From Nostoc punctiforme PCC 73102 (GTDB lineage: Bacteria; Cyanobacteriota; Cyanobacteriia; Cyanobacteriales; Nostocaceae), in the NCBI RefSeq assembly GCF_000020025.1, contig NC_010628.1, forward strand, positions 3,600,001 to 3,632,000: a stretch of 32,000 nucleotides of DNA, read 5' to 3'. The notes below the pieces were generated by a model. That model searched no databases. It saw only the letters and a list, made by a program, of their open reading frames with translations, and had not been told where the DNA came from. The translations under genes were made by a program, and so were the position numbers. Positions 4,272 through 22,793 of this stretch are shown piece by piece. Within the stretch, counting starts at the first letter, position 1. Every line of letters begins with the position of its first letter.

Positions 4272-5876
4272 TTACAATAAGCCTCGTTTACCATTGGGAC
4301 GGATGGTCATCCAATTTGTTTTTGCTAATGCTAGCTGCTCATCAGAAATCTTGGCACTAGTGAGATTAGCACCACATAGATTAGCTCCTCGCAGGTTAGC
4401 ATTGCTGAGATAAGCATTACTGAGGTCTGCACCTCGCAGGTCTGCCCCTTCTAAATCAGCATGGTTAAAGTATGCTTTGGTCAAATTAGCATCCTTGAGA
4501 TTTGCTTTACTAAGACTGGCTCTGCCAAAGTCACTATTGTGAAGATTAGCTCCCTGGAGATTGGTTTTTTGCAATTGAGTGGAATGGAAATTTGTTCCTG
4601 ATAAGTCAGCACCTTGCAGGTTCAACAAACTTAAATTGTGAAGAGCAAAATCTCGTCTTCCCTTTTGATAGGCGGTTAACAAACCTTGGGTATCTAGCTT
4701 ACGCTCAACTTTAGAATTTTGAACTTGCGAACCATTACTGTTGCTGTTAGCTAAAGTGGTTGATTTGCCCATCCCAGAAGCGTGGTGCGATCCAGCAGCT
4801 TCTGCTGCCTTAGCTCGTCTGGCACGAATTGCTGCTGCTACCTGTGCCACTCCTGCACTGGTTACAGCAACAGAAGAGTTGTTACATAAAACAGCGGAAT
4901 TTTCCAGGTGGTTGTGCGTTCGCTCTTTAGACCCAGTATCTGATTTAATCAGTAAACCCTTTGCTAAACTTTCTAAGTATGGTTCTATTTCCAATGCTCT
5001 AAGAACTTCTGCGGCTGACTGATAGCGATTACGTACAGAAACATCTAACATCTTTCGTAATACATTACTCAAGTGATCGCTCACTTGCACAAGTTGCTCC
5101 CATATCATCTCGCCAGTGTTGGGATTGTAATCTAAATCTTTAGGAGTTTTGCTAGTCAGTAAATAAATACATGTTACCCCCAGAGCATAAATATCACTAG
5201 CATATACTGGACGCATAGCCATTTGCTCTGGAGGTGCAAAACCAGGAGTACCAATCGCATAAGCAGTTAATGCTGTTTGTCCTGATTGACTGATTGCGCC
5301 TTGGGTGACTTGGTTTTTGACGGCACCAAAGTCGATAAGTACCATTCTGGCATCTTGAGTGCGACGAATTAAGTTGGCTGGCTTGATATCACGGTGGATC
5401 ACCTTTTGCTCGTGGATGTATTGGAGGAGTGGTAGAATCTCGCTTAAGAATTGCTTGACTCCAGTTTCGGTCAAGATACCGTTAAGTTTGACCTCCTCCT
5501 GCAAGGTATCACCACTGATATATTCTTGAACTAAATAGAATTGTTCATGATCTTCAAAATAGTCTAGCAATCTTGGTACTTGGGGATGATTGCCAATCTT
5601 ACCTAGAGTTTTGGCTTCTCGTTCAAAGAGTTCTCTGGCCATCTGTAAAACGTGTGGGGCGCTTCCTGATGGGCGTAATTGTTTGATTACGCAACTCGGT
5701 TCTCCTGGTAAGCCTCGATCGTTGGCTAAGAAGGTTGCTCCAAAGCCACCTTGACCTAATGGTTTGATCGCCTGATAGCGATCGCGCAACAGTAGTTGCG
5801 AGCCACAAGACTGACAACTTTGGCTATTTACCAAATTTTCTGGATTGGGACAGATAGGATTTAAGCAGTAGCTCAT
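4272..5876 (-). CDS. Ser/Thr protein kinase with N-terminal 4-Cys motif and C-terminal pentapeptide repeats
   Basis: 534 aa. The N-terminus is CLNPICPNPENLVNSQSCQSCG (4-Cys). The Hanks kinase motifs are GQGGFGATF, VIKQL, HRDIKPANL, DFG and GTPGFAPPE. The C-terminal ~115 aa are A(D/N)LxG-type pentapeptide repeats (LQGADLSGTNF...ANLRGANLCGANL). Confidence 0.9.
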   Translation of the reverse strand: MSYCLNPICPNPENLVNSQSCQSCGSQLLLRDRYQAIKPLGQGGFGATFLANDRGLPGEPSCVIKQLRPSGSAPHVLQMARELFEREAKTLGKIGNHPQVPRLLDYFEDHEQFYLVQEYISGDTLQEEVKLNGILTETGVKQFLSEILPLLQYIHEQKVIHRDIKPANLIRRTQDARMVLIDFGAVKNQVTQGAISQSGQTALTAYAIGTPGFAPPEQMAMRPVYASDIYALGVTCIYLLTSKTPKDLDYNPNTGEMIWEQLVQVSDHLSNVLRKMLDVSVRNRYQSAAEVLRALEIEPYLESLAKGLLIKSDTGSKERTHNHLENSAVLCNNSSVAVTSAGVAQVAAAIRARRAKAAEAAGSHHASGMGKSTTLANSNSNGSQVQNSKVERKLDTQGLLTAYQKGRRDFALHNLSLLNLQGADLSGTNFHSTQLQKTNLQGANLHNSDFGRASLSKANLKDANLTKAYFNHADLEGADLRGADLSNAYLSNANLRGANLCGANLTSAKISDEQLALAKTNWMTIRPNGKRGLL

Positions 5877-8302: not shown

Positions 8303-11300
8303 CTATGCTTGAATGATGAAATCGGAGGCAGTAAGAGTGGGTGTACCAGTAAGTTGGGCAAATTGACCACCAGTGCCGAAACCAGCAGCGCTACCATTTT
8401 GATTGTATAGTAACTGCCCAGTCATAGAGTCGTAGACAATCACAGCATTACTAACTGCCCCTAAGCTAGTGATTTGAAAATTACTGGCGTTACTAAAACC
8501 CTTTCCTATAACAGAAGTAATGGCACTAAAAGTAGTCTTATCCAGAACAATCTTGTCACCATCAGAGTGATTGAAGTCAGCAATGGTATCAATACCTACA
8601 GTAGCGCTAGTAAAGGCAGCATTGGTGTTGTAGACGAAAGCATCAGCACCCATACCACCGATGAGAATATCATTACCTTTTCCACCAATGAGAAGATCAT
8701 CTCCAGCACCACCCCGCAGTAGATCGTCACCACTGTTACCATTGATGGTATCGTTGCCCCCTTGACCATTAATTACATCGTTGGAGTTGTCAAAACCGAC
8801 AATGTTATTGTTTAATTCATTGAGAAAGGTGACGGTGTTCTTGTTGAAAATGCTCGTTTGAGTGGAGTTGGCATTAATCACATCAAAGCTGTCTGTAATA
8901 CTGGCTTGTCCGTTAAACAGAATATTACCGATGGCGGGTCTTGTTGCCGATGCACTTACGTTCTCCAGGTTTTCTAACTTAAAGTTTTGCAGAGTGACTT
9001 TGGTATTAGCCACGTCTTCAAAAGTAACTTCTAAGTCATTACTATTTTGAGTTAATTGCAGATTTCTCGCAGTCAAGCCAGCCCCAACAAATTGCAAGGT
9101 ATCTAATTTGGTAATCACCGCAGATGAAGGGTTTGAGTTAGTACCTATACCGCCAAAGTCTGTGATGATGTCATTGCCATTGTTTAGCCGGGTAACAAAG
9201 ATGTCATTGCCAGCAGTGCCATTGATAACTTGAATTTTGGATTTAACTATGCCACTAATAACAAAGTCAAAAGAGCTTTCATCAGTATCGTTGTTGTCTA
9301 AAATCAGAGTGCCACCATAGCTGCCAGGTGTAGTGGTGTTGAGTGCCACCGTAATCGCGGTGGAAGCATTTGCAGCCACACTTGTTGGCAGAGTTCCTAC
9401 CAAACTAAATCCGTCGGGAAGCTTGAGATTATTGAGATTGAGTGCATCTGTACCCGTGTTCTTGATAGTAAAGGTTTTGGTCAGAGTATTACCAGTAATC
9501 ACATCGCCAAAGTTAATTGCGGTAGTACTGCCATCTGCAATATCAACTGTGCCATTGAGGACTTGAATTTCGGGAGCTGGAGCGGGTTTAACTATGCCAC
9601 TAATAACAAAGTCAAAAGAGCTTTCATCAGTATCGTTGTTGTCTAAAATCAGAGTGCCACCATAGCTGCCAGGTGTAGTGGTGTTGAGTGCCACCGTAAT
9701 CGCGGTGGAAGCATTTGCAGCCACACTTGTTGGCAGAGTTCCTACCAAACTAAATCCGTCGGGAAGCTTGAGATTATTGAGATTGAGTGCAGCTGTACCT
9801 GTGTTCTTGATGGTAAAGGTTTTGGTCAGAGTATTACCAGTAATCACATCGCCAAAGTTAATCGCGGTAGTACTGCCATCTGCAATGTTAACTGTGCCAT
9901 TGAGGACTTGAATTTCGGGAGCTGGAGCGGGTTTAACTATGCCACTAATAACAAAGTCAAAAGAGCTTTCATCAGTATCGTTGTTGTCTAAAATCAGAGT
10001 GCCACCATAGCTGCCAGGTGTAGTGGTGTTGAGTGCCACCGTAATCGCGGTGGAAGCATTTGCAGCCACACTTGTTAGAAGAGTTCCTACCAAACTAAAT
10101 CCGTCGGGAAGCTTGAGATTATTGAGATTGAGTGCATCTGTACCCGTGTTCTTGATAGTAAAGGTTTTGGTCAGAGTATTACCAGTAATCACATCGCCAA
10201 AGTTAATCGCGGTAGTACTGCCATCTGCAATGTCAACTGTGCCATTGAGGACTTGAATTTCGGGAGCTGGAGCGGGTTTAACTATGCCACTAATAACAAA
10301 GTCAAAAGAGCTTTCATCAGTATCGTTGTTGTCTAAAATCAGAGTGCCACCATAGCTGCCAGGTGTAGTGGTGTTGAGTGCCACCGTAATCGCGGTGGAA
10401 GCATTTGCAGCCACACTTGTTGGAAGAGTTCCTACCAAACTAAATCCGTCGGGAAGTTTAAGATTACTGAGATTGAGTGCAGCTGTACCTGTGTTCTTGA
10501 TGGTAAAGGTTTTGGTCAGAGTATTACCAGTAATCACATCGCCAAAGTTAATCGCGGTAGTACTGCCATCTGCAATGTCAACTGTGCCATTGAGGACTTG
10601 AATTTCCGGGGTGGTAATGGTTTTGTGGGGGGCTTCGTATGCACCAATATCAATCACTGCTGTGCCATTACCATCGCCATCGTGAGGAGTTTTATTAGTT
10701 ATGCTATTGAATGTATTGGAACCAGCATCAATTGCAGGACTTCCAGGTTTGAGACTAAAGTTACCATTCGCTGGATCAACAAATAATGGGTCTTGGTTTA
10801 AAATATTCCCTGAACCCGTAACCTTAAAAACTCCGTTGTAAGCAAGGTTATTATTGAATGTAACATTAGTAGACTTATTGTTGACAATGAGAGACTCTCC
10901 GTTGCTTCCATACAGAATATTGTTATAGACTCGAACATTTTTAGCATAGTTAAGGAAAATTTCTCCGTCTGAAAGTACTTTTGAATTTTGGTAAATTGTA
11001 TTATTCACAATGTCTACAGGGTTTTCTCCTTTGAAAATCTGAATACCTGCCCCGCCATTGCTGTAAGTTAAGTTGTTACTGATTAAGGCTTTACCAGTGT
11101 AGGCAACATTTCCAAAATAAGAAGTGTCAAGCATTATTCCATGACCTTCAGTTATTTTTCCTGCTACCTTCCAAGGAACTAATGATTGATTATCAGAAAC
11201 AGTGTTACCTTGAATAATTACTTTGTAATCTGCGGTGTTGTTATCGGAGTTCCAAAGTCTAAGTAGGGAAATACCTTGTGTACCAAAAGGTGAGTACCAA

Positions 11301-11848
11301 GCATTTCCAGTAACAACATTATTTTCTATTTTAATATAGTCTACTTCTGTTCCTCCAATCCCTCCCCCTGGAAACTTGGAAATATTGTTATTACTAATTG
11401 TGATATGACTTGAATGTTGATTTAGATTGTCACTGCTAACCGTAGCAAAAATACCACTTCCAGCTGTAGCTGGATTATTTAAATTGTCTTTTTGGTTAAG
11501 TGCATCTTTTAATGTAATATTGTCTCGATTTCCTACCAATGTTAAGCCTTCAATTTCTATGTAGCTCGAACCTGTAATTGATACAGCTACCCAATTTTTT
11601 TCATTTGCTTTTAAAACTGGTGTATGCCCAGGTAGTGCCATAAATTTGATCGGTGCATTAGCCGTACCCTGCTTATTTGCAATACTCAGGATATAGGCGT
11701 AAGGCGAGGTGTAAGTACCATTCATCACGTAGACTGTATCACCTGCTTTCACTAAGTCGGCAGCTTTTTGGAGGCTGCGAAATGCATCTCCCTGACTCAA
11801 GCCATTAGATTTATCATTGCCTGTTCCAGAAACGTAGTATGTAGCCAT
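8303..11848 (-). CDS. Large secreted protein: N-terminal right-handed parallel beta-helix, four tandem Ig-like (choice-of-anchor-D/HYDIN-like) domains, C-terminal RTX calcium-binding repeats
   Basis: 1181 aa. The N-terminus MATYYVSGTGNDKSNGLSQGDAFRSLQKAADLVKAGDTVYVMNGTY and the following NN/GN-rich turns are typical of pectate-lyase-fold beta-helix proteins. Four 115-aa repeats carry FGDVITGNTLTKTFTIKNTGTAALNL. The C-terminus holds nonapeptide GGxGxD repeats (GQGGNDTINGNSGDDLLRGGAGDDLLIGGKGNDILIGGMGADAFVY), typical of type I secretion substrates. Confidence 0.9.
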   Translation of the reverse strand: MATYYVSGTGNDKSNGLSQGDAFRSLQKAADLVKAGDTVYVMNGTYTSPYAYILSIANKQGTANAPIKFMALPGHTPVLKANEKNWVAVSITGSSYIEIEGLTLVGNRDNITLKDALNQKDNLNNPATAGSGIFATVSSDNLNQHSSHITISNNNISKFPGGGIGGTEVDYIKIENNVVTGNAWYSPFGTQGISLLRLWNSDNNTADYKVIIQGNTVSDNQSLVPWKVAGKITEGHGIMLDTSYFGNVAYTGKALISNNLTYSNGGAGIQIFKGENPVDIVNNTIYQNSKVLSDGEIFLNYAKNVRVYNNILYGSNGESLIVNNKSTNVTFNNNLAYNGVFKVTGSGNILNQDPLFVDPANGNFSLKPGSPAIDAGSNTFNSITNKTPHDGDGNGTAVIDIGAYEAPHKTITTPEIQVLNGTVDIADGSTTAINFGDVITGNTLTKTFTIKNTGTAALNLSNLKLPDGFSLVGTLPTSVAANASTAITVALNTTTPGSYGGTLILDNNDTDESSFDFVISGIVKPAPAPEIQVLNGTVDIADGSTTAINFGDVITGNTLTKTFTIKNTGTDALNLNNLKLPDGFSLVGTLLTSVAANASTAITVALNTTTPGSYGGTLILDNNDTDESSFDFVISGIVKPAPAPEIQVLNGTVNIADGSTTAINFGDVITGNTLTKTFTIKNTGTAALNLNNLKLPDGFSLVGTLPTSVAANASTAITVALNTTTPGSYGGTLILDNNDTDESSFDFVISGIVKPAPAPEIQVLNGTVDIADGSTTAINFGDVITGNTLTKTFTIKNTGTDALNLNNLKLPDGFSLVGTLPTSVAANASTAITVALNTTTPGSYGGTLILDNNDTDESSFDFVISGIVKSKIQVINGTAGNDIFVTRLNNGNDIITDFGGIGTNSNPSSAVITKLDTLQFVGAGLTARNLQLTQNSNDLEVTFEDVANTKVTLQNFKLENLENVSASATRPAIGNILFNGQASITDSFDVINANSTQTSIFNKNTVTFLNELNNNIVGFDNSNDVINGQGGNDTINGNSGDDLLRGGAGDDLLIGGKGNDILIGGMGADAFVYNTNAAFTSATVGIDTIADFNHSDGDKIVLDKTTFSAITSVIGKGFSNASNFQITSLGAVSNAVIVYDSMTGQLLYNQNGSAAGFGTGGQFAQLTGTPTLTASDFIIQA
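9228..10610. repeat. Four near-identical tandem 345-bp repeats inside the RTX protein gene
   Basis: Unit boundaries recur at 9241, 9586, 9931 and 10276 (period exactly 345 bp, or 115 codons). Units differ by only a handful of substitutions by eye. The four 77-aa antisense ORFs in the track (9333, 9678, 10023, 10368) mirror this periodicity. Confidence 0.95.
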
Positions 11849-14259: not shown

Positions 14260-14633
14260 ATGGCTGTGGAATATCATCAAGCTATTGAAGTGTTTTATTT
14301 TTATGCTTATGAAGATGAAACACTTCGCGACAAACTAGAAAAGCATCTCACCTTTTTAGAACCGTAAGGTGTGATTACAGGATGGCACGATCGCAAAATT
14401 GAAGCAAGAAAAGAATGGCAGAATGAGAGAGATACCCACTTAGATTCATTTCAGATAATTTTGCTGCTTGTAAGTGCAAATTTTGCTTAATATTATTGCT
14501 CGAATGTCGAGGTAAAACTGGCAATGGAACGGCATGAAAGCAAAGAAGCCAGAGTTATTCCTATAATTCTCAACTTTGTTGATATTAAATTGATAGCGCA
14601 AGTTCGTAAATGTAATCAAACTTGCAATAAATA
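14260..14633 (+). pseudogene. TIR domain gene remnant with two in-frame stop codons
   Basis: A single frame reads MAVEYHQAIEVFYFYAYEDETLRDKLEKHLTFLEP*GVITGWHDRKIEARKEWQNERDTHLDSFQIILLLVSANFA*YYCSNVEVKLAMERHESKEARVIPIILNFVD. This matches the cyanobacterial TIR pattern (VF.SYAHEDE.LR..LEKHL..L...G.I..WHDR.I..G..W...ID..L..A.IILLLVS.DFLAS.YC...E...A..RHE.GEARVIPVIL) but is interrupted by TAA at 14365-14367 and a second stop, and it ends after about 124 codons. Confidence 0.65.
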
Positions 14634-14896
14634 ATAACGTTAATAATATCAATAGTTTTTACATTACTTAACTTACTTTCATTTATTCTCGCCTACTTAC
14701 TTTATCTAGAAAGTTGCATTTGTTGTAATCATAAGCAACTGACCAATTTGCAAGGTGAGTGCAAGTTTCGTTGAGACTAAGTTCAGTCGAGCCGAATACT
14801 TGTTATTTACCTAACATAACTAGACAACATTGAAGTAGCTGTTAAAAAACATGGTAATAAATTTATTAGTGACACATATAAAATTGGAATAAAACC

Positions 14897-17245
14897 GTGA
14901 TTGATGAGCAAGAAATAGAAAAGCTGTGGCAAGCCTTCAAAGTATTAGATGTAGACGGCAACGGAGCAATCTCAACCGACGAACTGGGGGAAGTAATGCG
15001 ATCGCTAGGACAAAATCCTACGGAAACGGGGTTGCGTGACTTAATCAAAGAGATTGACGTGGATTTGTCAGGCACTATTGACTTTGACGAGTTTAAAACG
15101 CTGATGATCGCTAAGGTAGGCGATCGCGAAAGCCGCCTCAAGTTAGCCTTCAGCGCCTTTGATGAAGACAATAGCGGCCAAATTACTGCCGTCGAGTTGC
15201 GGACGGTAATGAGTCAATTTGGGCTGACAGACGCTGAATTGAAAGAGATGCTACAGGAAGTAGATCATGATGGCGATGGCTCAATTGACTTTGAGGAATT
15301 TTGTCAGCTAGTACTGGAAGAGTCAGAGAGCAAGACAGGCTATAAAGACTCACCAATCTCCCTAGAAAGTTCGCTCAAGACAGTTGCCACTAACAATACA
15401 CCAGTTGCCGACACCACTCAGCCTACTCTACAAGAAGCAACCAGCAACACGACTCCAGAGTTGGCACAGCTAAGAGAACAGTTGGTGCAACACCCAAACT
15501 CACCAAATCAGAAAAGAAGCGGCACCTCCCGCTTACAAATGCAGATTGGTTTGTTTCGGCTAATTCAAGGAGCAGCCTATCGTAGTTTCCGTGAAAGTTT
15601 CTCCGCTAACCATGAGACTCACTTACGTGTCAAAAACCTGCCATACAGAATTACTGACTTTGTGGAATTTGTCAAGCAGGCGATCGCGCTTTACAAAGGA
15701 TTAGGTGTGGTGGAAGAGGCTTGCTACCCCGTACTAGATGCAGTAGTAGAATCGATTGCAGATGAATATGCCCGATTACAGGAGCGCATCAAAGACTGGA
15801 AAACAGTGGCAAAGACTCCCGAAATGTTGGCAGAAGAGAAAAAGATTTTAGAGGCGCGGAGTAAATTTGCCAATGTCAAAGAAAAGTTTGCTGCCGGAGT
15901 CGAGTTTGCAATTACCATCAAAAAGAAAAGTCTCAGCTTGGGTGACATCGTAGAAGGTGTGCTGGCCATTAACGAGCTTAATCGCCTGAGAGGGATAGAA
16001 ATGAATGAAGAAATGGCACCACCACCACCTAAATCTGAGGGAAATCCCAGAGACTATTTATTCAAGTGGAACCGTGTCATCCTCTCGCAGGCAACCGAGG
16101 AAGTGGATGGTGCAATGATGCCAGTAGCATATTGGTATGAAGATTTCATGCCCAAGTTATTAGCAGCATTTAGTGTCTCGACGGCAGCAGATATCCAAAG
16201 CAATACCATACCTGACGAAGCAGCTTTGGATGAGTGGTATGACTTGACAAAAAAATCAGGAGAATTTAACCGTTACGGAGCAGATGTTGCCGAAAACTTT
16301 CTCAATTGCACTGCAAAAGAGAAACTGATCCTCAAACAAGCATGGCGATTAACACATCACTACCTGAATGGAGTGCAGAAACGGCGCGAACGCCTAGAGT
16401 TTGGGCGGGAGTCAGGCGCACTCTCGCAATATGTATCATTCATTGATGTCTATCTAAATCGGACTGAGGTGAAGGATTCCCAAATGCGTGTCAGCTTCCC
16501 GTATTACATCGGCCCAGCAGTGTGGCGCTTCTTCCACACCACGGCTGAAATCGTGTGTACCAAAACTGACATACAGCAAAAAACCCTGATGGCAATCTTC
16601 AAGGACTTCTTCCAACTGTTTGCTACGATGTATCCCTGTCCCTATTGCCGCCACCACCTGAATATGTACGTTGTGCAGAATAAGGAGGTGGATATGTATC
16701 CCGTGGAATACCTTGTCTTGGGACGCGATCCTAACCTTAGAGACTTTGAGGTATCACTGGAGGCAAAATTATCAACCGTAGTCGATGGTTCCTCCCTGCG
16801 TTTATTCTTCTGGAAGTTACATAACACTGTTTCTTCATCCATTGCGCGATCGGAAGAGTGGTATCACAAGGATGAGAAGGCGTTTTACACTACCCGCTTT
16901 TGGCCCAGCCTTGACTCGGAGCTAGCCAGAGCAAATGCCCTCAGATATACCAGCATCGAAACTGCTCGTATTTACAACATTTATGGAATGCTCAAGCCAT
17001 TGGCACGTCTGACAGGAGTAAAAACGGAATTGCCAAAGCTGTTACAAAAAGGTGATGAAAATAGCCTTAAGGAAGCATGTATAGTTGCACAGAACCACAT
17101 CGCGGATTTGGAGGAAGCTGTCATCCGTGGAGAGTTTCTGCAAGAGACATACTATTTTGACCCCGATGTCGTAGATAAAGCTCCACTTTTTACCCCTGAA
17201 GAGGAAGAGTTTGCACGAACTGGTATGTTCATAGAAGCCGCTTAA
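14897..17245 (+). CDS. Calmodulin-like four-EF-hand domain fused to a C-terminal Erv1/ALR-type sulfhydryl-oxidase-like domain
   Basis: 782 aa with a GTG start, the first start codon after an in-frame TAA. Residues 1-145 carry four canonical 12-residue Ca loops ([48 protein letters not shown]) and the calmodulin string [11 protein letters not shown]. An S/T/P/Q-rich linker follows, then a long helical region. At nt ~16500-16860 the reading is [14 protein letters not shown]...[21 protein letters not shown]...[10 protein letters not shown], matching the Erv/ALR pattern W..(L/F)H..A ... F ... YPC..C..H ... W..HN.V, with the CxxC at 16637-16648. Confidence 0.85.
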
Positions 17246-17401: not shown

Positions 17402-18568
<1,167 letters not shown>

Positions 18569-18901: not shown

Positions 18902-20032
18902 ATGAGAATTGCCCTATTTACTGAAACCTTTTTACCCAAGGTTGACGGCATTGTAACGCGTCTGCGCCATACTGTTGACCATCTACAGCGTAGTGGTAAT
19001 CAAGTGCTGGTGATTGCCCCTGATGGAGGCATCACTGAACACAAAGGCGCTAAAGTTTACGGCATTACTGGCTTTCCTCTGCCATTGTATCCAGAATTGA
19101 AAATGGCACTTCCTCGCCCAGCCATTGGTTATGCTTTAGAAGAGTTTAAGCCAGAGGTGATTCATGTCGTGAATCCAGCCGTTTTGGGTTTAGCTGGCAT
19201 ATTTTACAGCAAAATCCTCAAAATACCCTTAGTAGCGTCTTACCATACCCATTTACCCCAATATCTTCAACATTACGGCTTGGGGATGCTGGAAGGTTTT
19301 CTTTGGGAACTGCTCAAAGGCGCTCATAATCAAGCAGCTTTGAATCTGTGTACCTCCACAGCAATGGTGGAGGAACTGACAGGACATGGGATTGAACGTG
19401 TAGATTTATGGCAGCGTGGGGTGGATACGGAATTATTTCACCCCGATTTAGCTAATGTAGAGATGCGATCGCGCCTATCCCAAAATCATCCAGAAAGTCC
19501 ATTGCTACTTTACGTTGGGCGGCTTTCTGCTGAAAAAGAAATTGAGCGCATCAAACCAATTTTAGAAGCAATTCCCGAAGCGCGGTTAGCATTGGTTGGA
19601 GATGGCCCACACCGTCAAGCACTGGAAAAACACTTTGCTGGCACAAATACTTATTTTGTTGGATATCTTATGGGACAAGAATTAGGTTCTGCCTTTGCGA
19701 GTGCTGATGCCTTCATATTTCCTTCCCGTACAGAAACACTAGGCTTAGTACTACTAGAAGCGATGGCTGCTGGCTGTCCCGTGGTAGCAGCCCGTTCCGG
19801 GGGAATTCCTGATATTGTGACAGACGGGGTAAATGGATATCTTTTTGAGCCAACAGAAGATGTTAAAGGAGCAATCGCCGCTACTGTTCGCCTCTTAGAA
19901 CAAAAAGAACAACGAGACATCATCCGTCAAAATGCTCGCCAGGAAGCAGAAAGTTGGGGTTGGGCAGCTGCAACCAATCAGCTACAAGATTACTACCAGA
20001 AGATAATATTTTCTGAGCAGTTGGCAAAATAA
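18902..20032 (+). CDS. sqdX: Sulfoquinovosyl diacylglycerol synthase-type glycosyltransferase (GT4)
   Basis: 376 aa. The N-terminus MRIALFTETFLPKVDGIV and the C-terminal segment FPSRTETLGLVLLEAMAAGCPVVAARSGGIPDIV (E-x7-E region) mark a GT4 enzyme. The position directly after sqdB is the conserved cyanobacterial arrangement. Confidence 0.85.
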   Translation: MRIALFTETFLPKVDGIVTRLRHTVDHLQRSGNQVLVIAPDGGITEHKGAKVYGITGFPLPLYPELKMALPRPAIGYALEEFKPEVIHVVNPAVLGLAGIFYSKILKIPLVASYHTHLPQYLQHYGLGMLEGFLWELLKGAHNQAALNLCTSTAMVEELTGHGIERVDLWQRGVDTELFHPDLANVEMRSRLSQNHPESPLLLYVGRLSAEKEIERIKPILEAIPEARLALVGDGPHRQALEKHFAGTNTYFVGYLMGQELGSAFASADAFIFPSRTETLGLVLLEAMAAGCPVVAARSGGIPDIVTDGVNGYLFEPTEDVKGAIAATVRLLEQKEQRDIIRQNARQEAESWGWAAATNQLQDYYQKIIFSEQLAK

Positions 20033-20216: not shown

Positions 20217-22793
20217 GTGACACTCCCCAATCCTGGCAGCGTCTTGGCTACATTAACTGAACTGACTCAAGTTAATCGTACTCACGCCTTATTACGTCGC
20301 GTAAAAGATTTATCTGTTAATGAATTTGTTTGCCTACTCGACTTCATAACTGCTGAGTTCCAGCAATTTCTTAGAGCTATTGAACTAATCAATAATGAAG
20401 CTCTAGAAACTATGTTAGAGAAGGTACTAGAAGCTATCACACTTAAAATAGGTCAAATCCTGCAAGCAGAACATACAGCTATTTTTTTAGTTGACCATGA
20501 CAAAGGTCAACTATGGTCAAAAGTTCCTCAAGATAATAGTCAAAAATTCTTAGAAATTCGTACTCCTATGACTGTGGGTATCCCCGGTCATGTTGCCAGT
20601 ACAGGTCAATATTTAAATATATCTGAAACTTATACTCATCCTTTATTTAGCCCAGAACTTGAAAAACAAATGGGCTACAAAATCCATAATATTTTATGTA
20701 TGCCTGTTACCAGCAGCAAAAACCAGACTGTTGCGGTAGTTCAACTGGCTAATAAAACCGGGAATGTTCCGTTTAATCATGATGATGAAGAACGTTTTCG
20801 AGACTTTGCCGCTTCTATTGGGATTATTCTGGAAAGCTGCCAATCTTTTTATGTCGCGGCTCGGAATCAACGAGGCGCAACGGCTTTGTTACGCGCAACT
20901 CAGACATTGGGGCAAAGTCTGGATTTAGAAGCAACTTTGCAAATAGTCATGGAACAAGCTCGAATTTTAATGCAAGCAGACCGCAGTACGCTGTTTTTAT
21001 ATCGTAAAGAGATGAGCGAACTCTGGACAAAAGTTGCGGCGGCAGATGGCACAAACTTATTAGAAATCTGTATTCCAGCTAACCGAGGTATTGCTGGCTA
21101 TGTGGCTTCCACTGGTCAAGCCTTAAACATTTCCGATGCCTACAAAGATCCCCGCTTTGACCCAAGTACAGATAGAAAAACTGGTTATGTGACTCGCAAT
21201 ATTCTATGTTTACCAGTATTTAATTCTGCAAATGAATTAATTGGCGTAACCCAATTAATTAATAAGCAGCAAAACAGTTTTACTGCTTCTGATGAAGAGT
21301 TTATGCGGGCTTTTAATATTCAGGCAGGAATTGCCTTAGAAAATGCTCGTCTATTTGAAAATGTATTGTTAGAAAAACAGTATCAAAAAGACATTTTGCA
21401 AAGTCTTTCAGATGCGGTGATTTCTACAGATATGGCAGGTAGAATTGTCACGATTAATGATGCAGCTCTGGAGTTATTGGGTTGCCCTGTAAAAGACACT
21501 AATACCAAAAGTCACAAGCTTTTGTGGGAACAAAATTTGATTGGTCGCTTAGTTTGGGAAGTTGTGCCGATTGAAAATCTCCAAATGCGACTCGAAGATA
21601 GCTTAAAAACTGGAGCTAAACATTATGTGCCAGAGCAAACTTTGATGGTGGGAATTTCTCAAGTTAAGAATGCTGTTAATGGTAGTGGGACGTTTAGCAC
21701 TCAGTACTCAATTTTAGCAATGTGCGATCGCACTAACCCCAATGTGTTCATTCCCTGGAATCTCCCCCTCACAACCGAATCTGAGTTTTTTAGCCCTGAT
21801 GAGGTGCAAACATTAGAACGCAGTACAAATCTCACTGTCAATCCCCTAACTAACCCAGAAGGCGGTGTTCGGGGTGGTTTGGTGGTGTTGGAAGACATCA
21901 GCCAGGAAAAACGGATGAAAACTACCATGTCCCGCTACCTAACGCCTCATGTAGCCGAACAAGTCATGGCTCTGGGAGAAGATGCTTTAATGGTGGGTGA
22001 GCGTAAGGATGTAACCATCTTGTTTTCTGATATCCGAGGCTATACAACACTTACAGAAAATATCGGTGCAGCTGAAGTGTTATCCTTGCTCAATCAGTAT
22101 TTTGAAACGATGGTGGAGGCGGTTTTTAACTACGAAGGCACGCTCGATAAATTTATTGGTGATGCGTTAATGGCAGTATTTGGTGCGCCGCTACCTCTGA
22201 CAGAAAATCATGCTTGGAGAGCTGTGCAGTCAGCGTTAGATATGCGACAACGCTTAGAGGAATTTAACCAACGGCGAATTATCCAGGCACAGCCACAAAT
22301 TCATATTGGCATTGGCATTAGTTCTGGAGAAGTGGTTTCGGGTAATATTGGTTCCCGTAAACGCATGGATTACACCGTAATTGGAGACAGTGTAAACTTG
22401 AGTTCGCGGTTAGAAGCAGTAACTAAAGAATACGGTTGTGATATTATTTTAAGCGAATTTACTTACCAGATGTGCAGCGATCGCATTTGGGTGCGCCAGT
22501 TAGATAAAATCCGAGTCAAAGGGAAACATCAAGCAGTTAATATCTACGAGTTAATTGGCGATCGCAACACCCCTCTAGATGCCAACACCCAAGAGTTTTT
22601 GTATCACTATCATACTGGACGCGCTGCTTATTTATCGCGCAACTTCTCACTAGCGATCGCTTGTTTTAAAGCCGCCAAATACATCCAACCCAAAGACCAA
22701 GGTGTTGATATCCACCTAGAACGTGCGCGTAATTATTTACAAAATCCGCCCCCAGAGTCATGGGATGGTATTTGGACAATGCTTACTAAGTAG
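20217..22793 (+). CDS. cyaB1: Adenylate cyclase with tandem GAF domains, a PAS domain and a class III cyclase catalytic domain (CyaB1 type)
   Basis: 858 aa with a GTG start. There are two GAF domains (...GIPGHVASTGQYLNISETY...LCMPV... and ...GIAGYVASTGQALNISDAY...LCLPV...), then a PAS-like region (QKDILQSLSDAVISTDMAGRIVTINDAA) and the class III cyclase core (VTILFSDIRGYTTL...KFIGDALMAVFGAP...GNIGSRKRMDYTVIGDSVNLSSRLE). Size and architecture match Anabaena CyaB1/CyaB2. I chose the symbol from remembered synteny with the omp85-lpx cluster, so B1 versus B2 is not certain. Confidence 0.85.
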   Translation: MTLPNPGSVLATLTELTQVNRTHALLRRVKDLSVNEFVCLLDFITAEFQQFLRAIELINNEALETMLEKVLEAITLKIGQILQAEHTAIFLVDHDKGQLWSKVPQDNSQKFLEIRTPMTVGIPGHVASTGQYLNISETYTHPLFSPELEKQMGYKIHNILCMPVTSSKNQTVAVVQLANKTGNVPFNHDDEERFRDFAASIGIILESCQSFYVAARNQRGATALLRATQTLGQSLDLEATLQIVMEQARILMQADRSTLFLYRKEMSELWTKVAAADGTNLLEICIPANRGIAGYVASTGQALNISDAYKDPRFDPSTDRKTGYVTRNILCLPVFNSANELIGVTQLINKQQNSFTASDEEFMRAFNIQAGIALENARLFENVLLEKQYQKDILQSLSDAVISTDMAGRIVTINDAALELLGCPVKDTNTKSHKLLWEQNLIGRLVWEVVPIENLQMRLEDSLKTGAKHYVPEQTLMVGISQVKNAVNGSGTFSTQYSILAMCDRTNPNVFIPWNLPLTTESEFFSPDEVQTLERSTNLTVNPLTNPEGGVRGGLVVLEDISQEKRMKTTMSRYLTPHVAEQVMALGEDALMVGERKDVTILFSDIRGYTTLTENIGAAEVLSLLNQYFETMVEAVFNYEGTLDKFIGDALMAVFGAPLPLTENHAWRAVQSALDMRQRLEEFNQRRIIQAQPQIHIGIGISSGEVVSGNIGSRKRMDYTVIGDSVNLSSRLEAVTKEYGCDIILSEFTYQMCSDRIWVRQLDKIRVKGKHQAVNIYELIGDRNTPLDANTQEFLYHYHTGRAAYLSRNFSLAIACFKAAKYIQPKDQGVDIHLERARNYLQNPPPESWDGIWTMLTK

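What the first reader, a model, noticed from the sequence alone, without database searches (positions are those of the whole stretch)
14897..17245. Calmodulin-like four-EF-hand module fused to an Erv1/ALR-type sulfhydryl-oxidase-like domain in a cyanobacterium
Seen directly: the first ~145 residues are very close to eukaryotic calmodulin and are not merely a generic EF-hand protein. All four 12-residue loops are canonical at positions 1, 3, 5 and 12, with Gly at 6. The string [15 protein letters not shown] reproduces the calmodulin [11 protein letters not shown] segment, and the spacing of the four hands matches calmodulin. After an S/T/P/Q-rich linker and about 330 residues of predicted helical sequence, the C-terminal part carries the Erv/ALR hallmark. 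That hallmark reads W-RFFH-T-A, then [13 protein letters not shown] (CxxC, nt 16637-16648), then FWKLHNTV.

Established: Erv1/ALR FAD-linked thiol oxidases are overwhelmingly eukaryotic or from large DNA viruses, and true calmodulin-like proteins are rare in bacteria.

Inference: two eukaryote-typical modules in one polypeptide suggest a Ca2+-gated disulfide-forming or redox enzyme. The logic would resemble the CDPKs, where an output domain, a junction and a CaM-like domain sit in a single chain. The basic amphipathic segment [25 protein letters not shown] just after the linker looks like a candidate intramolecular CaM-target (IQ-like) helix. There is no signal peptide, so a cytoplasmic thiol oxidase would itself be unusual. 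I know of no characterised protein with this architecture.
Basis: partly seen in the sequence, partly recalled or inferred. Interest (0 to 1): 0.8.

Follow-up and report, generated by a model that had tools for sequence, protein, structure and literature searches.

The report
Calmodulin-like domain fused to Erv-type oxidase
This Nostoc gene really does encode a calmodulin-like calcium sensor joined to an Erv/ALR-type disulfide-forming flavoenzyme domain, and it belongs to a widespread family in bacteria, eukaryotes and giant viruses for which I found no functional study, so it is a good candidate for a calcium-switched thiol oxidase.

Summary
ORF 14897-17245 (+) encodes a 782-aa protein, 100% identical over aa 200-782 to a Nostoc punctiforme protein annotated only as "EF-hand domain-containing protein". 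Residues 1-141 are 51% identical to human calmodulin, with four canonical EF loops. Residues 531-681 pass Pfam's threshold for Erv1/ALR, and a family profile hits essentially only Erv-type oxidases in the PDB.

The interpretation needs correcting in three ways.
- The fusion is not a local oddity. Relatives occur in 258 bacterial/archaeal species genomes (the best 80 listed are all filamentous cyanobacteria; Nannocystis and Ruegeria members came from a protein search), diverse eukaryotes and giant viruses, and all 80 genome loci examined keep both parts.
- The proposed "IQ-like" helix is almost unchanged in relatives that lack EF-hands and is modelled confidently within the body, so it is probably structural.
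- A different short helix (aa 187-199) tracks with canonical EF-hands and is a better candidate target for the calcium sensor.

The 330-residue helical body has no Pfam or PDB match. The Erv signature (W-x3-H, YPCPYC, HN-V) is nearly invariant across 251 relatives, which argues for a live redox site.

The best reading is a soluble, Ca2+-regulated Erv-type thiol oxidase built on NOX5/CDPK logic. FAD binding, activity and Ca2+ control are all untested, and I found no paper describing it. Novelty: new variant of a known kind. Interest 0.6.

The parts
14897..17245 (+). Complete gene: 782 codons with a GTG start, then a stop codon at 17243-17245
   Evidence: Residues 200-782 are 100% identical to the 782-aa N. 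punctiforme protein P0002.
14897..15319 (+). Calmodulin-like four-EF-hand domain (aa 1-141)
   Evidence: Pfam EF-hand_7 E 2.7e-31. PDB calmodulins at about E 1e-38. 51% identity to human calmodulin. Foldseek hits with the full model are calmodulins only.
14948..14983 (+). EF loop 1, [12 protein letters not shown] (aa 18-29)
   Evidence: Canonical in 131 of 141 close relatives.
15056..15091 (+). EF loop 2, [12 protein letters not shown] (aa 54-65)
   Evidence: Canonical in 134 of 141 close relatives.
15161..15196 (+). EF loop 3, [12 protein letters not shown] (aa 89-100)
   Evidence: Canonical in 137 of 141 close relatives.
15263..15298 (+). EF loop 4, [12 protein letters not shown] (aa 123-134)
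   Evidence: Canonical in 139 of 141 close relatives.
15320..15454 (+). Variable, T/S-rich disordered linker (aa 142-186)
   Evidence: pLDDT <50. Poorly conserved among 133 close relatives. Composition.
15455..15493 (+). Short amphipathic helix [13 protein letters not shown] (aa 187-199), proposed here as the candidate target ('junction') helix for the EF domain
   Evidence: A semi-conserved island within the linker. A motif fitted to it is found in 124 of 148 relatives with 3 or more EF-like loops and in 0 of 105 with 2 or fewer; background rate 2%. AlphaFold2 predicts a helix at 187-198 but with low confidence. Its role is inference.
15518..15592 (+).
   Evidence: F220, G225, Y228 and R229 are invariant in the 38-sequence alignment and nearly so in all groups, including relatives without EF-hands. 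pLDDT 96-98 with or without the EF domain in the model.
15518..16486 (+). Family-specific helical domain (aa 208-530), with conserved motifs such as [29 protein letters not shown] and [12 protein letters not shown]
   Evidence: No Pfam model matches it. Confident AlphaFold2 model (pLDDT 85, pTM 0.88). No Foldseek match in the PDB (best E 1.0). One full-length match in a giant virus.
16487..16939 (+). Erv/ALR-like domain (aa 531-681): helix 1 GPAVWRFFH, helix 2, CxxC helix, a ~38-residue insert, the helix [12 protein letters not shown], and a short fifth helix
   Evidence: PF04777 at 39.1 bits against a 27.6 cut-off. Profile search of the PDB: the 15 best hits are all Erv-family oxidases. Predicted helices at 535-554, 558-578, 582-592, 631-647 and 672-681.
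16637..16648 (+). Putative redox-active CPYC (C581, C584)
   Evidence: C581 is Cys in 250 of 251 relatives and C584 in 248 of 251. It aligns with the active-site CxxC of Erv1 and AtErv1.
16820..16831 (+). HNTV motif (aa 642-645), matching the HNxV motif of Erv enzymes
   Evidence: H642 is invariant and N643 is conserved in 250 of 251 relatives. It aligns with HNTV of AtErv1 as a sub-threshold second segment.
16940..17242 (+). C-terminal long helical hairpin (aa 689-745) and conserved tail (YYFDP...[13 protein letters not shown])

Best explanation
The gene encodes a soluble cytoplasmic enzyme in three parts: an N-terminal calmodulin-like Ca2+ sensor, a flexible linker that carries a short amphipathic helix, and a large helical body whose C-terminal half is an Erv/ALR-type FAD domain with a CPYC redox centre.

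Proposed mechanism:
1. (Inferred) At resting Ca2+ the EF domain is detached, or holds the enzyme in a less active state.
2. (Inferred) A Ca2+ rise loads the four EF loops.
3. (Inferred) The opened lobes clamp a target helix. The best candidate is aa 187-199, and a surface of the body is the alternative.
4. (Inferred) This switches the Erv domain on or off.
5. (Inferred from the family) The CPYC disulfide takes electrons from substrate thiols, passes them to FAD, and FAD passes them to O2 (giving H2O2) or to another acceptor.

This is the logic of NOX5 and of the calcium-dependent protein kinases: a calmodulin-like domain in the same chain as the output domain.

Shown here: domain identities, canonical Ca2+ ligands, near-invariance of the Erv signature, absence of export signals, and family-wide retention of the architecture. 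Everything about cofactor, catalysis, substrate and direction of regulation is inference.
For: EF domain. It is 51% identical to calmodulin and has four canonical loops. The loops are canonical in 131-139 of 141 relatives from filamentous cyanobacteria. Read directly from the alignment, the hydrophobic residues that form calmodulin's target pockets are retained as hydrophobic: M34, M70, M105 and M118 are kept, and the others are L, V or F.

Erv domain. Pfam PF04777 is above threshold. The family profile hits Erv1, ALR, Erv2, R596 and another FAD-linked sulfhydryl oxidase as its 15 best PDB matches. G539-x3-W543-x3-H547 and YPC581xxC584 are in register with solved Erv enzymes; H642-N-x-V645 aligns only in a sub-threshold segment. 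These residues are nearly invariant in 251 relatives, even where the EF-hands have decayed. The predicted helix order fits an Erv bundle.

The two parts travel as one unit. Both are present in 80 of 80 loci. Between Nostoc and Nannocystis, the N-terminal domain is 61% identical and the body 60%. A profile of the N-terminal domain also detects that domain in AT-rich eukaryote-type relatives.

Candidate target helix. It co-occurs with canonical EF-hands.

Localisation and gene status. No signal peptide or membrane segment, and G+C is typical of coding sequence in this window.

Precedent. NOX5, which also occurs in cyanobacteria, is switched on when its calmodulin-like EF domain binds its flavin-containing dehydrogenase domain in the presence of Ca2+ (PMC7317449).
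Against: - No experiment exists. FAD binding and oxidase activity rest on motif conservation alone.
- About 38 residues are inserted between the CxxC helix and the HN helix, and Pfam aligns only the first half of its profile.
- The only CxxC, CxC or similarly close cysteine pair in the Nostoc protein is the CPYC; its other five Cys are at 136, 276, 471, 554 and 728. Cellular Erv enzymes normally use a second 'shuttle' pair to reach protein substrates.
- At least 70 relatives keep the Erv signature but have lost canonical EF loops (the picocyanobacterial-type group is identified), so Ca2+ control is not essential to the family's core function.
- AlphaFold2 places the aa 187-198 helix at low confidence (pLDDT 42-49). 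The link between that helix and EF-hand status is phylogenetically structured, so it is not a set of independent observations.
- A thiol oxidase in a reducing cytoplasm has no identified substrate, and no conserved neighbouring gene hints at one.
Confidence: 0.5

Rival explanations
1. The Erv-like domain is a redox-active CxxC/flavin module, but it is not a Ca2+-switched oxidase. In this view it acts constitutively, for example as a dedicated oxidase or isomerase for one partner, or as a redox sensor. The EF domain would then serve as a Ca2+ buffer, a structural cap or a localisation module rather than a switch.
For: The catalytic signature is invariant in at least 70 relatives whose EF loops are no longer canonical, and in eukaryotic relatives that lack the domain altogether. 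The family's core function is therefore independent of Ca2+. Another cyanobacterial EF-hand protein, CSE, is thought to act partly as a buffer (PMC13578307).
Against: All four loops keep their Ca2+ ligands across 141 close relatives. The calmodulin-type hydrophobic pocket residues are kept. A short helix in the linker tracks with EF-hand competence. That pattern is what a sensor-plus-target pair would produce, and a buffer would not need it.
Confidence: 0.25
2. One reading: the basic helix [25 protein letters not shown] (aa 208-232) is an IQ-like intramolecular calmodulin target. On a Ca2+ signal the EF domain docks onto it or releases it, and this gates the enzyme.
For: The segment contains an IQ-like string, (L/I)QGAAYRxFR, and it sits just after the linker. 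Eukaryotic relatives that lack their own EF domain could in principle recruit free cellular calmodulin to the same helix; this is inference only.
Against: F220, G225, Y228 and R229 are conserved whether the EF-hands are canonical, degenerate or absent. The helix is modelled at pLDDT 96-98 in the model made without the EF domain. Both points fit a helix buried in the fold better than an exposed regulatory peptide.
Confidence: 0.12
3. The protein is mainly a helical scaffold or adaptor. The Erv-like part would be a non-catalytic 'pseudo-Erv' fold, like the second Erv-like domain of QSOX enzymes (from background knowledge), and the CxxC would be structural or metal-binding.
For: The body is large and helical, with a long C-terminal hairpin. 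Only about 150 of the 580 body residues are Erv-like. Some eukaryotic relatives carry a lipidation-type N-terminus, a signal peptide or a WD40 fusion. Foldseek did not recover any Erv structure.
Against: Non-catalytic Erv-like domains lose the CxxC and the flavin-contacting residues (background knowledge). Here W543, H547, C581, C584, K640, H642 and N643 are nearly invariant in 251 sequences spanning bacteria and eukaryotes.
Confidence: 0.1

Closest known systems
Erv/ALR family FAD-dependent sulfhydryl oxidases (yeast Erv1 and Erv2, human ALR, Arabidopsis Erv1, mimivirus R596, ASFV pB119L)
   Same: It matches Pfam PF04777 above threshold. The G-x3-W-x3-H, YPCxxC and HNxV motifs correspond to those of solved Erv enzymes (the first two in register, HNxV in a sub-threshold segment), and the predicted helix order is the same.
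   Different: - The Erv module is embedded in a ~580-residue helical body that has no Pfam or PDB match.
- About 38 residues are inserted between the CxxC helix and the HN helix.
- There is no second closely spaced cysteine pair.
- A calmodulin-like domain sits at the N-terminus.
- The protein is predicted to be cytoplasmic in a bacterium.
NOX5 / DUOX / plant RBOH NADPH oxidases
   Same: They use the same logic: a calmodulin-like four-EF-hand domain in the same chain as an O2-reducing flavoenzyme. In NOX5 the Ca2+-loaded EF domain binds the catalytic domain to activate it, and NOX5 also occurs in cyanobacteria (PMC7317449).
   Different: The catalytic domain is unrelated: NOX5 has a membrane-bound haem/FAD/NADPH enzyme, whereas this is a soluble Erv-type thiol oxidase. 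Ca2+ activation of this protein is not demonstrated.
Calcium-dependent protein kinases (CDPK/CCaMK type)
   Same: The output domain, a junction helix and a calmodulin-like domain lie in a single chain.
   Different: The domain order is reversed, with the sensor at the N-terminus. The output is a redox domain rather than a kinase. The junction helix proposed here (aa 187-199) is only a correlation-based candidate.
Eukaryotic calmodulin and bacterial EF-hand proteins (cyanobacterial CSE, Streptomyces calmodulin-like proteins)
   Same: It has four canonical EF loops, 51% identity to calmodulin and the exact [11 protein letters not shown] string.
   Different: It is not a free-standing ~149-residue protein. 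It has two 2-residue deletions relative to calmodulin. CSE is an 8.5 kDa protein with two EF-hands and no enzyme domain (10.1101/571836).
QSOX (quiescin sulfhydryl oxidases) and baculovirus/nudivirus P33-type oxidases
   Same: These are multi-domain proteins in which an Erv module is combined with extra helical or regulatory domains. The matches are weak: TbQSOX at E 0.86 and a nudivirus sulfhydryl oxidase at E 2.4.
   Different: There is no thioredoxin domain and no secretion signal, and neither match is significant by sequence or fold.

Membership tests
Erv/ALR sulfhydryl oxidase family (Pfam PF04777) | Significant match to the family profile | tested here: met
   39.1 bits against a gathering cut-off of 27.6, E 9.7e-10, but only profile positions 2-56 of 93. 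Some relatives align over positions 2-82. In a family-profile search of the PDB, the 15 best hits are all Erv-type oxidases, best E 1e-7.
Erv/ALR sulfhydryl oxidase family (Pfam PF04777) | Active-site CxxC at the start of the third helix, preceded by Y-P | tested here: met
   YPC581PYC584 aligns with the YPCxxC of Erv1 and AtErv1. Cys is conserved at these positions in 248-250 of 251 relatives.
Erv/ALR sulfhydryl oxidase family (Pfam PF04777) | Flavin-contacting motifs: W-x3-H in helix 1 and H-N-x-V in helix 4 | tested here: met
   W543 and H547 align in register with AtErv1 and are invariant. H642-N643-T-V645 aligns with AtErv1's HNTV only in a sub-threshold segment; H642 is invariant and N643 nearly so. 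That these residues contact FAD comes from background knowledge of Erv structures, not from a test here.
Erv/ALR sulfhydryl oxidase family (Pfam PF04777) | Four/five-helix bundle fold | tested here: inconclusive
Erv/ALR sulfhydryl oxidase family (Pfam PF04777) | Bound FAD and thiol:O2 (or cytochrome c) oxidoreductase activity | not testable with these tools
   Needs purified protein.
Erv/ALR sulfhydryl oxidase family (Pfam PF04777) | Second 'shuttle' cysteine pair on a flexible arm (typical of cellular Erv1, Erv2 and ALR; from background knowledge it is absent from some viral members) | tested here: not met
   The seven Cys are at 136, 276, 471, 554, 581, 584 and 728. The CPYC is the only CxxC, CxC or similarly close pair.
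Calmodulin (in the strict sense) | Four canonical Ca2+-binding EF loops in two lobes | tested here: met
Calmodulin (in the strict sense) | Free-standing protein of about 149 residues, very highly conserved across eukaryotes | tested here: not met
   It is a domain of a 782-aa protein, 51% identical to human calmodulin, with two deletions. It should be called calmodulin-like, not calmodulin.
NOX5-type Ca2+-activated flavoenzyme (analogy only) | EF domain binds the catalytic domain when Ca2+ is present and activates it | not testable with these tools
   Only indirect support: canonical loops, and a linker helix that co-occurs with them.

The most novel reading that the evidence does not exclude
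This family is a previously unrecognised class of soluble, regulated Erv-type oxidases that turn a cytoplasmic Ca2+ transient into a burst of disulfide formation or H2O2.

In filamentous cyanobacteria, the Ca2+ spike reported at light-to-dark transitions (cited in 10.1101/571836) could switch the enzyme on, so that it re-oxidises thioredoxin-regulated enzymes.

On the sampling and the rough tree obtained here, the family shows more divergence among eukaryotes than among bacteria. It may therefore have reached bacteria as a complete unit of sensor plus enzyme, possibly with giant viruses as carriers.
Probability: 0.25. Interest if true: 0.8.

Novelty: new variant of a known kind. Interest (0 to 1): 0.6.

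Why it matters
Bacterial Ca2+ signalling has very few known effectors, and Erv-type oxidases are regarded as enzymes of eukaryotic compartments and large DNA viruses. A conserved bacterial protein that joins a near-calmodulin sensor to an Erv redox centre would give a direct, testable link between Ca2+ and thiol redox state or H2O2 in cyanobacteria.

It would be the second example, after NOX5, of an EF-hand-controlled, O2-reducing flavoenzyme shared between cyanobacteria and eukaryotes. It would also give a first functional handle on an uncharacterised family present in choanoflagellates, algae, diatoms, other AT-rich eukaryotes (possibly apicomplexans) and giant viruses.

The ~330-residue helical domain has no Pfam or PDB match and is a structural unknown in its own right.

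If the protein turns out to have no flavin or no Ca2+ response, the finding reduces to an interesting domain fusion with a misleading automatic annotation.

Tried and rejected
- Fold search of the full model returned only calmodulins.
- Fold search of the body alone against the PDB found nothing (best E 1.0), so the fold comparison with Erv structures stays open.
I therefore could not check docking of the EF domain or the geometry of the flavin pocket.
- Gene neighbourhood gave nothing. The upstream RNA cyclase gene is shared only within Nostoc (23 of 80 loci) and the downstream sulfolipid-type genes only with the closest strains (3-4 of 80). No other gene family accompanies the gene across genera. 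An operon-based functional inference is rejected.
- Recent horizontal arrival or a decaying gene is rejected: G+C is typical and the gene is intact in 80 of 80 loci.
- An anti-phage defence role, prompted by the decayed TIR gene next door, is not supported: no PADLOC match.
- Promoter and terminator scans were at chance level.
- Nine literature searches or paper look-ups for the fusion or for any Ca2+-regulated Erv enzyme found nothing. One paper only notes in passing that PF04777 occurs in Nostocales and Oscillatoriophycideae (PMC10598087).
- I tried to put names on the AT-rich eukaryote-type relatives, which I first guessed to be apicomplexan. No named Plasmodium or Toxoplasma protein came back. 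One contig carries eukaryotic-type genes such as a ubiquitin hydrolase. The 'apicomplexan' label is therefore unproven and I do not rely on it.
- Pfam does not detect EF-hands in those relatives, but a profile built from the family's own N-terminal domain does find the domain.
- The neighbour-joining tree is rough, midpoint-rooted and without support values. It suggests, but does not establish, that the bacterial clade lies inside eukaryotic diversity.
Full report
**1. The observation**

The window holds an uninterrupted ORF at 14897-17245 on the + strand, with a GTG start and 782 codons. Residues 200-782 are 100% identical to a 782-aa protein that NCBI names "EF-hand domain-containing protein [Nostoc punctiforme]" and UniRef names "thiol oxidase" (P0002).

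Pfam gives EF-hand_7 at E 2.7e-31 with four separate EF-hand_1 stretches. It also gives Evr1_Alr (PF04777) at E 9.7e-10 and 39.1 bits against a gathering cut-off of 27.6. A sequence search of the PDB returns calmodulins at about 1e-38 over residues 2-140, including the exact string [11 protein letters not shown].

It has two 2-residue deletions, one in the central helix and one between hands 3 and 4. The four loops (aa 18-29, 54-65, 89-100, 123-134) each have D at position 1, D at 3, N/S/D at 5, G at 6 and E at 12. The CxxC is at aa 581-584, which is nt 16637-16648 as stated. There is no signal peptide or membrane segment: the highest 19-residue hydropathy mean is 1.11.

**2. Anatomy**

AlphaFold2 with a 38-sequence alignment gave pLDDT 78.9 and pTM 0.74 for the whole protein. 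With 45 sequences it gave pLDDT 85.1 and pTM 0.88 for residues 205-782 alone. The parts are:
- an EF-hand domain, aa 1-141;
- a disordered, T/S-rich and poorly conserved linker, aa 142-186;
- a short predicted helix, aa 187-198, at low confidence;
- a confidently modelled helical body from about aa 208 to 770.

Within the body, helices at 535-554, 558-578, 582-592 (starting at the CPYC), 631-647 (carrying HNTV) and 672-681 have the order expected of an Erv bundle. About 38 residues are inserted between the CxxC helix and the HN helix. That insert explains why Pfam aligns only profile positions 2-56 of 93. In some relatives the alignment runs to position 82.

A profile built from the Erv region of 17 diverse relatives finds Arabidopsis Erv1 (1e-7), yeast Erv1, ALR, Erv2, mimivirus R596 and another FAD-linked sulfhydryl oxidase as its 15 best PDB hits. 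G-x3-W-x3-H and YPCxxC are in register; HNTV aligns only as a sub-threshold second segment.

**3. Distribution**

The gene is not a curiosity of one strain.

*Homologue searches.* A search with residues 200-782 found 646 clusters. The 120 listed, all at least 75% identical, are nearly all 780-810 aa proteins with the same EF-hand plus Erv architecture; the named ones are from Nostocales and Oscillatoriales. An exhaustive search of 1.84 billion cluster representatives found only 231 hits, so the family is discrete.

*Genomes.* A scan of one genome per species found relatives in 258 species. The 80 best are all filamentous cyanobacteria, and every one of the 80 has both the N-terminal and C-terminal parts.

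*Other bacteria.* Further members occur in picocyanobacteria-type Synechococcales and in Nannocystis (Myxococcota) and Ruegeria (Rhodobacterales).

*Eukaryotes.* Confirmed members are the streptophyte alga Chlorokybus atmophyticus, which has EF-hands and, by eye, an organelle-targeting leader; the diatom Seminavis robusta; and the choanoflagellate Didymoeca costata. The other forms are:
- versions starting MGxxxS, which looks like an N-myristoylation signal (by eye);
- versions with signal peptides;
- one WD40 fusion;
- a set of Asn-rich proteins of 730-1480 aa. One of these lies on a contig with eukaryotic-type genes such as a ubiquitin hydrolase.

*Viruses.* Foldseek against viral models gives one strong full-length match, a Yasminevirus protein mislabelled "histidine kinase" (E 1.2e-19). 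A giant-virus metagenome bin also carries a relative.

*Tree.* A rough, midpoint-rooted neighbour-joining tree puts the prokaryotic sequences plus Chlorokybus in one clade, nested among deeper eukaryotic branches. This hints at a eukaryotic origin with transfer to bacteria, but it is not a rigorous test.

*No sign of recent transfer.* In this window the gene's G+C (0.46) is typical of neighbouring genes.

**4. What is conserved, and what that says**

I aligned 254 relatives and grouped 251 of them by identity to the Nostoc body.

| Group (identity to Nostoc body) | Sequences | Canonical EF loops |
|---|---|---|
| At least 70% (filamentous cyanobacteria) | 141 | 131-139 of 141, per loop |
| 35-50% | 70 | EF1-3: 0 of 70; EF4: 6 of 70 |
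| Below 35% | 29 | 0 of 29 |

The Erv signature behaves differently. W543, H547, K640 and H642 are invariant in all 251. C581 is conserved in 250, C584 in 248 and N643 in 250. The redox site is therefore the family's constant, and Ca2+ binding is a lineage-specific regulatory layer, either kept or lost.

The N-terminal domain itself is old. A profile built from it detects the N-termini of the Asn-rich eukaryote-type members (full-sequence E 1.7e-20 to 0.002, all but the weakest spanning nearly the whole domain) although Pfam sees no EF-hand there. Between Nostoc and Nannocystis the N-terminal domain (61%) and the body (60%) have diverged in step, so the two parts are inherited together.

**5. 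The proposed calmodulin target**

However:
- F220, G225, Y228 and R229 are conserved irrespective of whether EF-hands are canonical, degenerate or absent;
- the helix is modelled at pLDDT 96-98 even when the EF domain is left out of the model.

It is most simply a core helix of the body.

A better candidate emerged from the linker. A short amphipathic helix about 10-20 residues upstream reads [13 protein letters not shown] in Nostoc (aa 187-199), with a by-eye consensus close to E-[IV]-x-R-L-K-E-L-L-A-x-H-P. A motif fitted to it occurs in 124 of 148 members with three or more EF-like loops, and most of the misses are visible variants, including the Nostoc punctiforme sequence itself. It occurs in none of 105 members with two or fewer loops. 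The background rate is 2%.

Nannocystis and Chlorokybus have a related helix by eye, though the motif regex does not match the Chlorokybus sequence; the Synechococcales type with degenerate EF-hands has a Pro/Ala-rich stretch instead. This correlation is phylogenetically structured and is not proof, but it is what a sensor-and-junction pair would look like.

**6. Mechanism**

The best-supported reading is a soluble Erv-type flavin thiol oxidase placed under the control of a calmodulin-like domain in the same chain.

Shown:
- domain identities;
- intact Ca2+ ligands;
- calmodulin-type hydrophobic pocket residues;
- an invariant redox signature;
- cytoplasmic location by absence of targeting signals;
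- co-inheritance of the modules.

Inferred:
- FAD binding;
- electron flow from substrate thiols to CPYC, then FAD, then O2 or another acceptor;
- Ca2+-driven clamping of a target helix that changes activity.

The closest working analogy is NOX5. Its calmodulin-like EF domain folds when Ca2+ binds and attaches to the flavin-containing dehydrogenase domain to activate it, and NOX5 likewise occurs in cyanobacteria as well as eukaryotes (PMC7317449).

Points against:
- the CPYC is the only closely spaced cysteine pair;
- no substrate is suggested by gene context, which is not conserved beyond the genus;
- many relatives dispense with Ca2+ binding.

A speculative physiological role is re-oxidation of thioredoxin-regulated enzymes when Ca2+ rises at light-to-dark transitions, a Ca2+ signal mentioned in 10.1101/571836.

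**7. Comparison with what is known, and novelty**

The Erv domain meets the sequence-level membership criteria (profile score, CxxC, flavin-contact motifs). It fails the shuttle-cysteine criterion. It could not be tested for fold superposition, flavin or activity.

The N-terminal domain is calmodulin-like rather than calmodulin. It is fused to a larger protein, it is 51% identical, and it has two deletions.

Databases label family members only automatically, as "EF-hand domain-containing protein", "thiol oxidase", "ERV1/ALR-related protein", "signal transduction protein" or, wrongly, "histidine kinase". One paper notes in passing that PF04777 occurs in Nostocales and Oscillatoriophycideae (PMC10598087). 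Nine searches or look-ups found no description or characterisation of the fusion, and the cyanobacterial Ca2+-signalling papers on CSE do not mention it.

I rate it a new variant of a known kind: an Erv-type enzyme with an unprecedented scaffold and a built-in Ca2+ sensor.

**8. Verdict**

Interest is 0.6. This is a well-conserved family with a clear, testable hypothesis for which I found no functional study, and it bears on bacterial Ca2+ signalling and on the evolution of Erv enzymes. At present it rests entirely on sequence and predicted structure.

Noticed in passing
window 14260-14634 (+): A decayed TIR-domain gene lies in the spacer between the RNA cyclase gene and the EF-hand/Erv gene. 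It is a single reading frame with two in-frame stop codons. With the stops masked, it matches Pfam TIR_2 at E 1.3e-7 and 32.6 bits.
   Followed up: yes
window 15455-15493 (aa 187-199 of the protein); also seen in P0038, P0039, P0361, P0125 and others: A short amphipathic helix in the otherwise variable linker occurs only in family members that keep three or more canonical EF loops: 124 of 148, against 0 of 105 in the rest. It is a candidate docking helix for the calmodulin-like domain.
   Followed up: partly
BFVD entry A0A5K0UAY3 (Yasminevirus sp. GU-2018); locus L083 6001-7305 (giant-virus metagenome bin): Giant viruses encode full-length relatives of the helical body plus Erv domain: Foldseek E 1.2e-19, and tblastn E 2e-48 at 25% identity. 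The Yasminevirus protein is annotated 'histidine kinase', the same wrong label carried by several cyanobacterial members.
   Followed up: partly
proteins P0134, P0136, P0138, P0141, P0142 (Didymoeca costata), P0143; P0215; P0151, P0225, P0235, P0255: Eukaryotic relatives have replaced the EF domain with other N-termini:
- MGxxxS/MGNC starts, which look like N-myristoylation or palmitoylation signals;
- a WDR55-type WD40 propeller (P0215);
- signal peptides.
This suggests the same redox core is deployed in different cell compartments.
   Followed up: partly
proteins P0163, P0169, P0171, P0174-P0176, P0179, P0181, P0182, P0185, P0188, P0220; locus L081: Asn-rich relatives of 730-1480 aa come from unnamed AT-rich eukaryotes. 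One contig also carries ubiquitin hydrolase and Bax-inhibitor genes. They keep a degenerate version of the N-terminal EF-type domain, which is detectable only with the family's own profile. A few have lost the CxxC: P0188 reads YPGPYSQDH and P0220 reads YPCPTLKL.
   Followed up: partly
window 8303-11848 (-): A 1180-aa protein with repeated HYDIN/VesB-type Ig-like and DUF1573 domains, a beta-helix region and an RTX Ca2+-binding repeat. It is conserved next to the locus only in the closest Nostoc strains.
   Followed up: no
window 17408-18568 and 18902-20032 (+): An NAD-dependent epimerase/dehydratase and a family 4 glycosyltransferase lie directly downstream. By eye they look like the sulfolipid genes sqdB and sqdX. 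They sit next to the EF-hand/Erv gene in only 3-4 of 80 loci, so they are probably unrelated to it.
   Followed up: partly
window 20217-22793 (+) and 4272-5876 (-): Two signalling genes lie nearby: a GAF-GAF-PAS adenylate/guanylate cyclase, and a Ser/Thr protein kinase fused to pentapeptide repeats.
   Followed up: no
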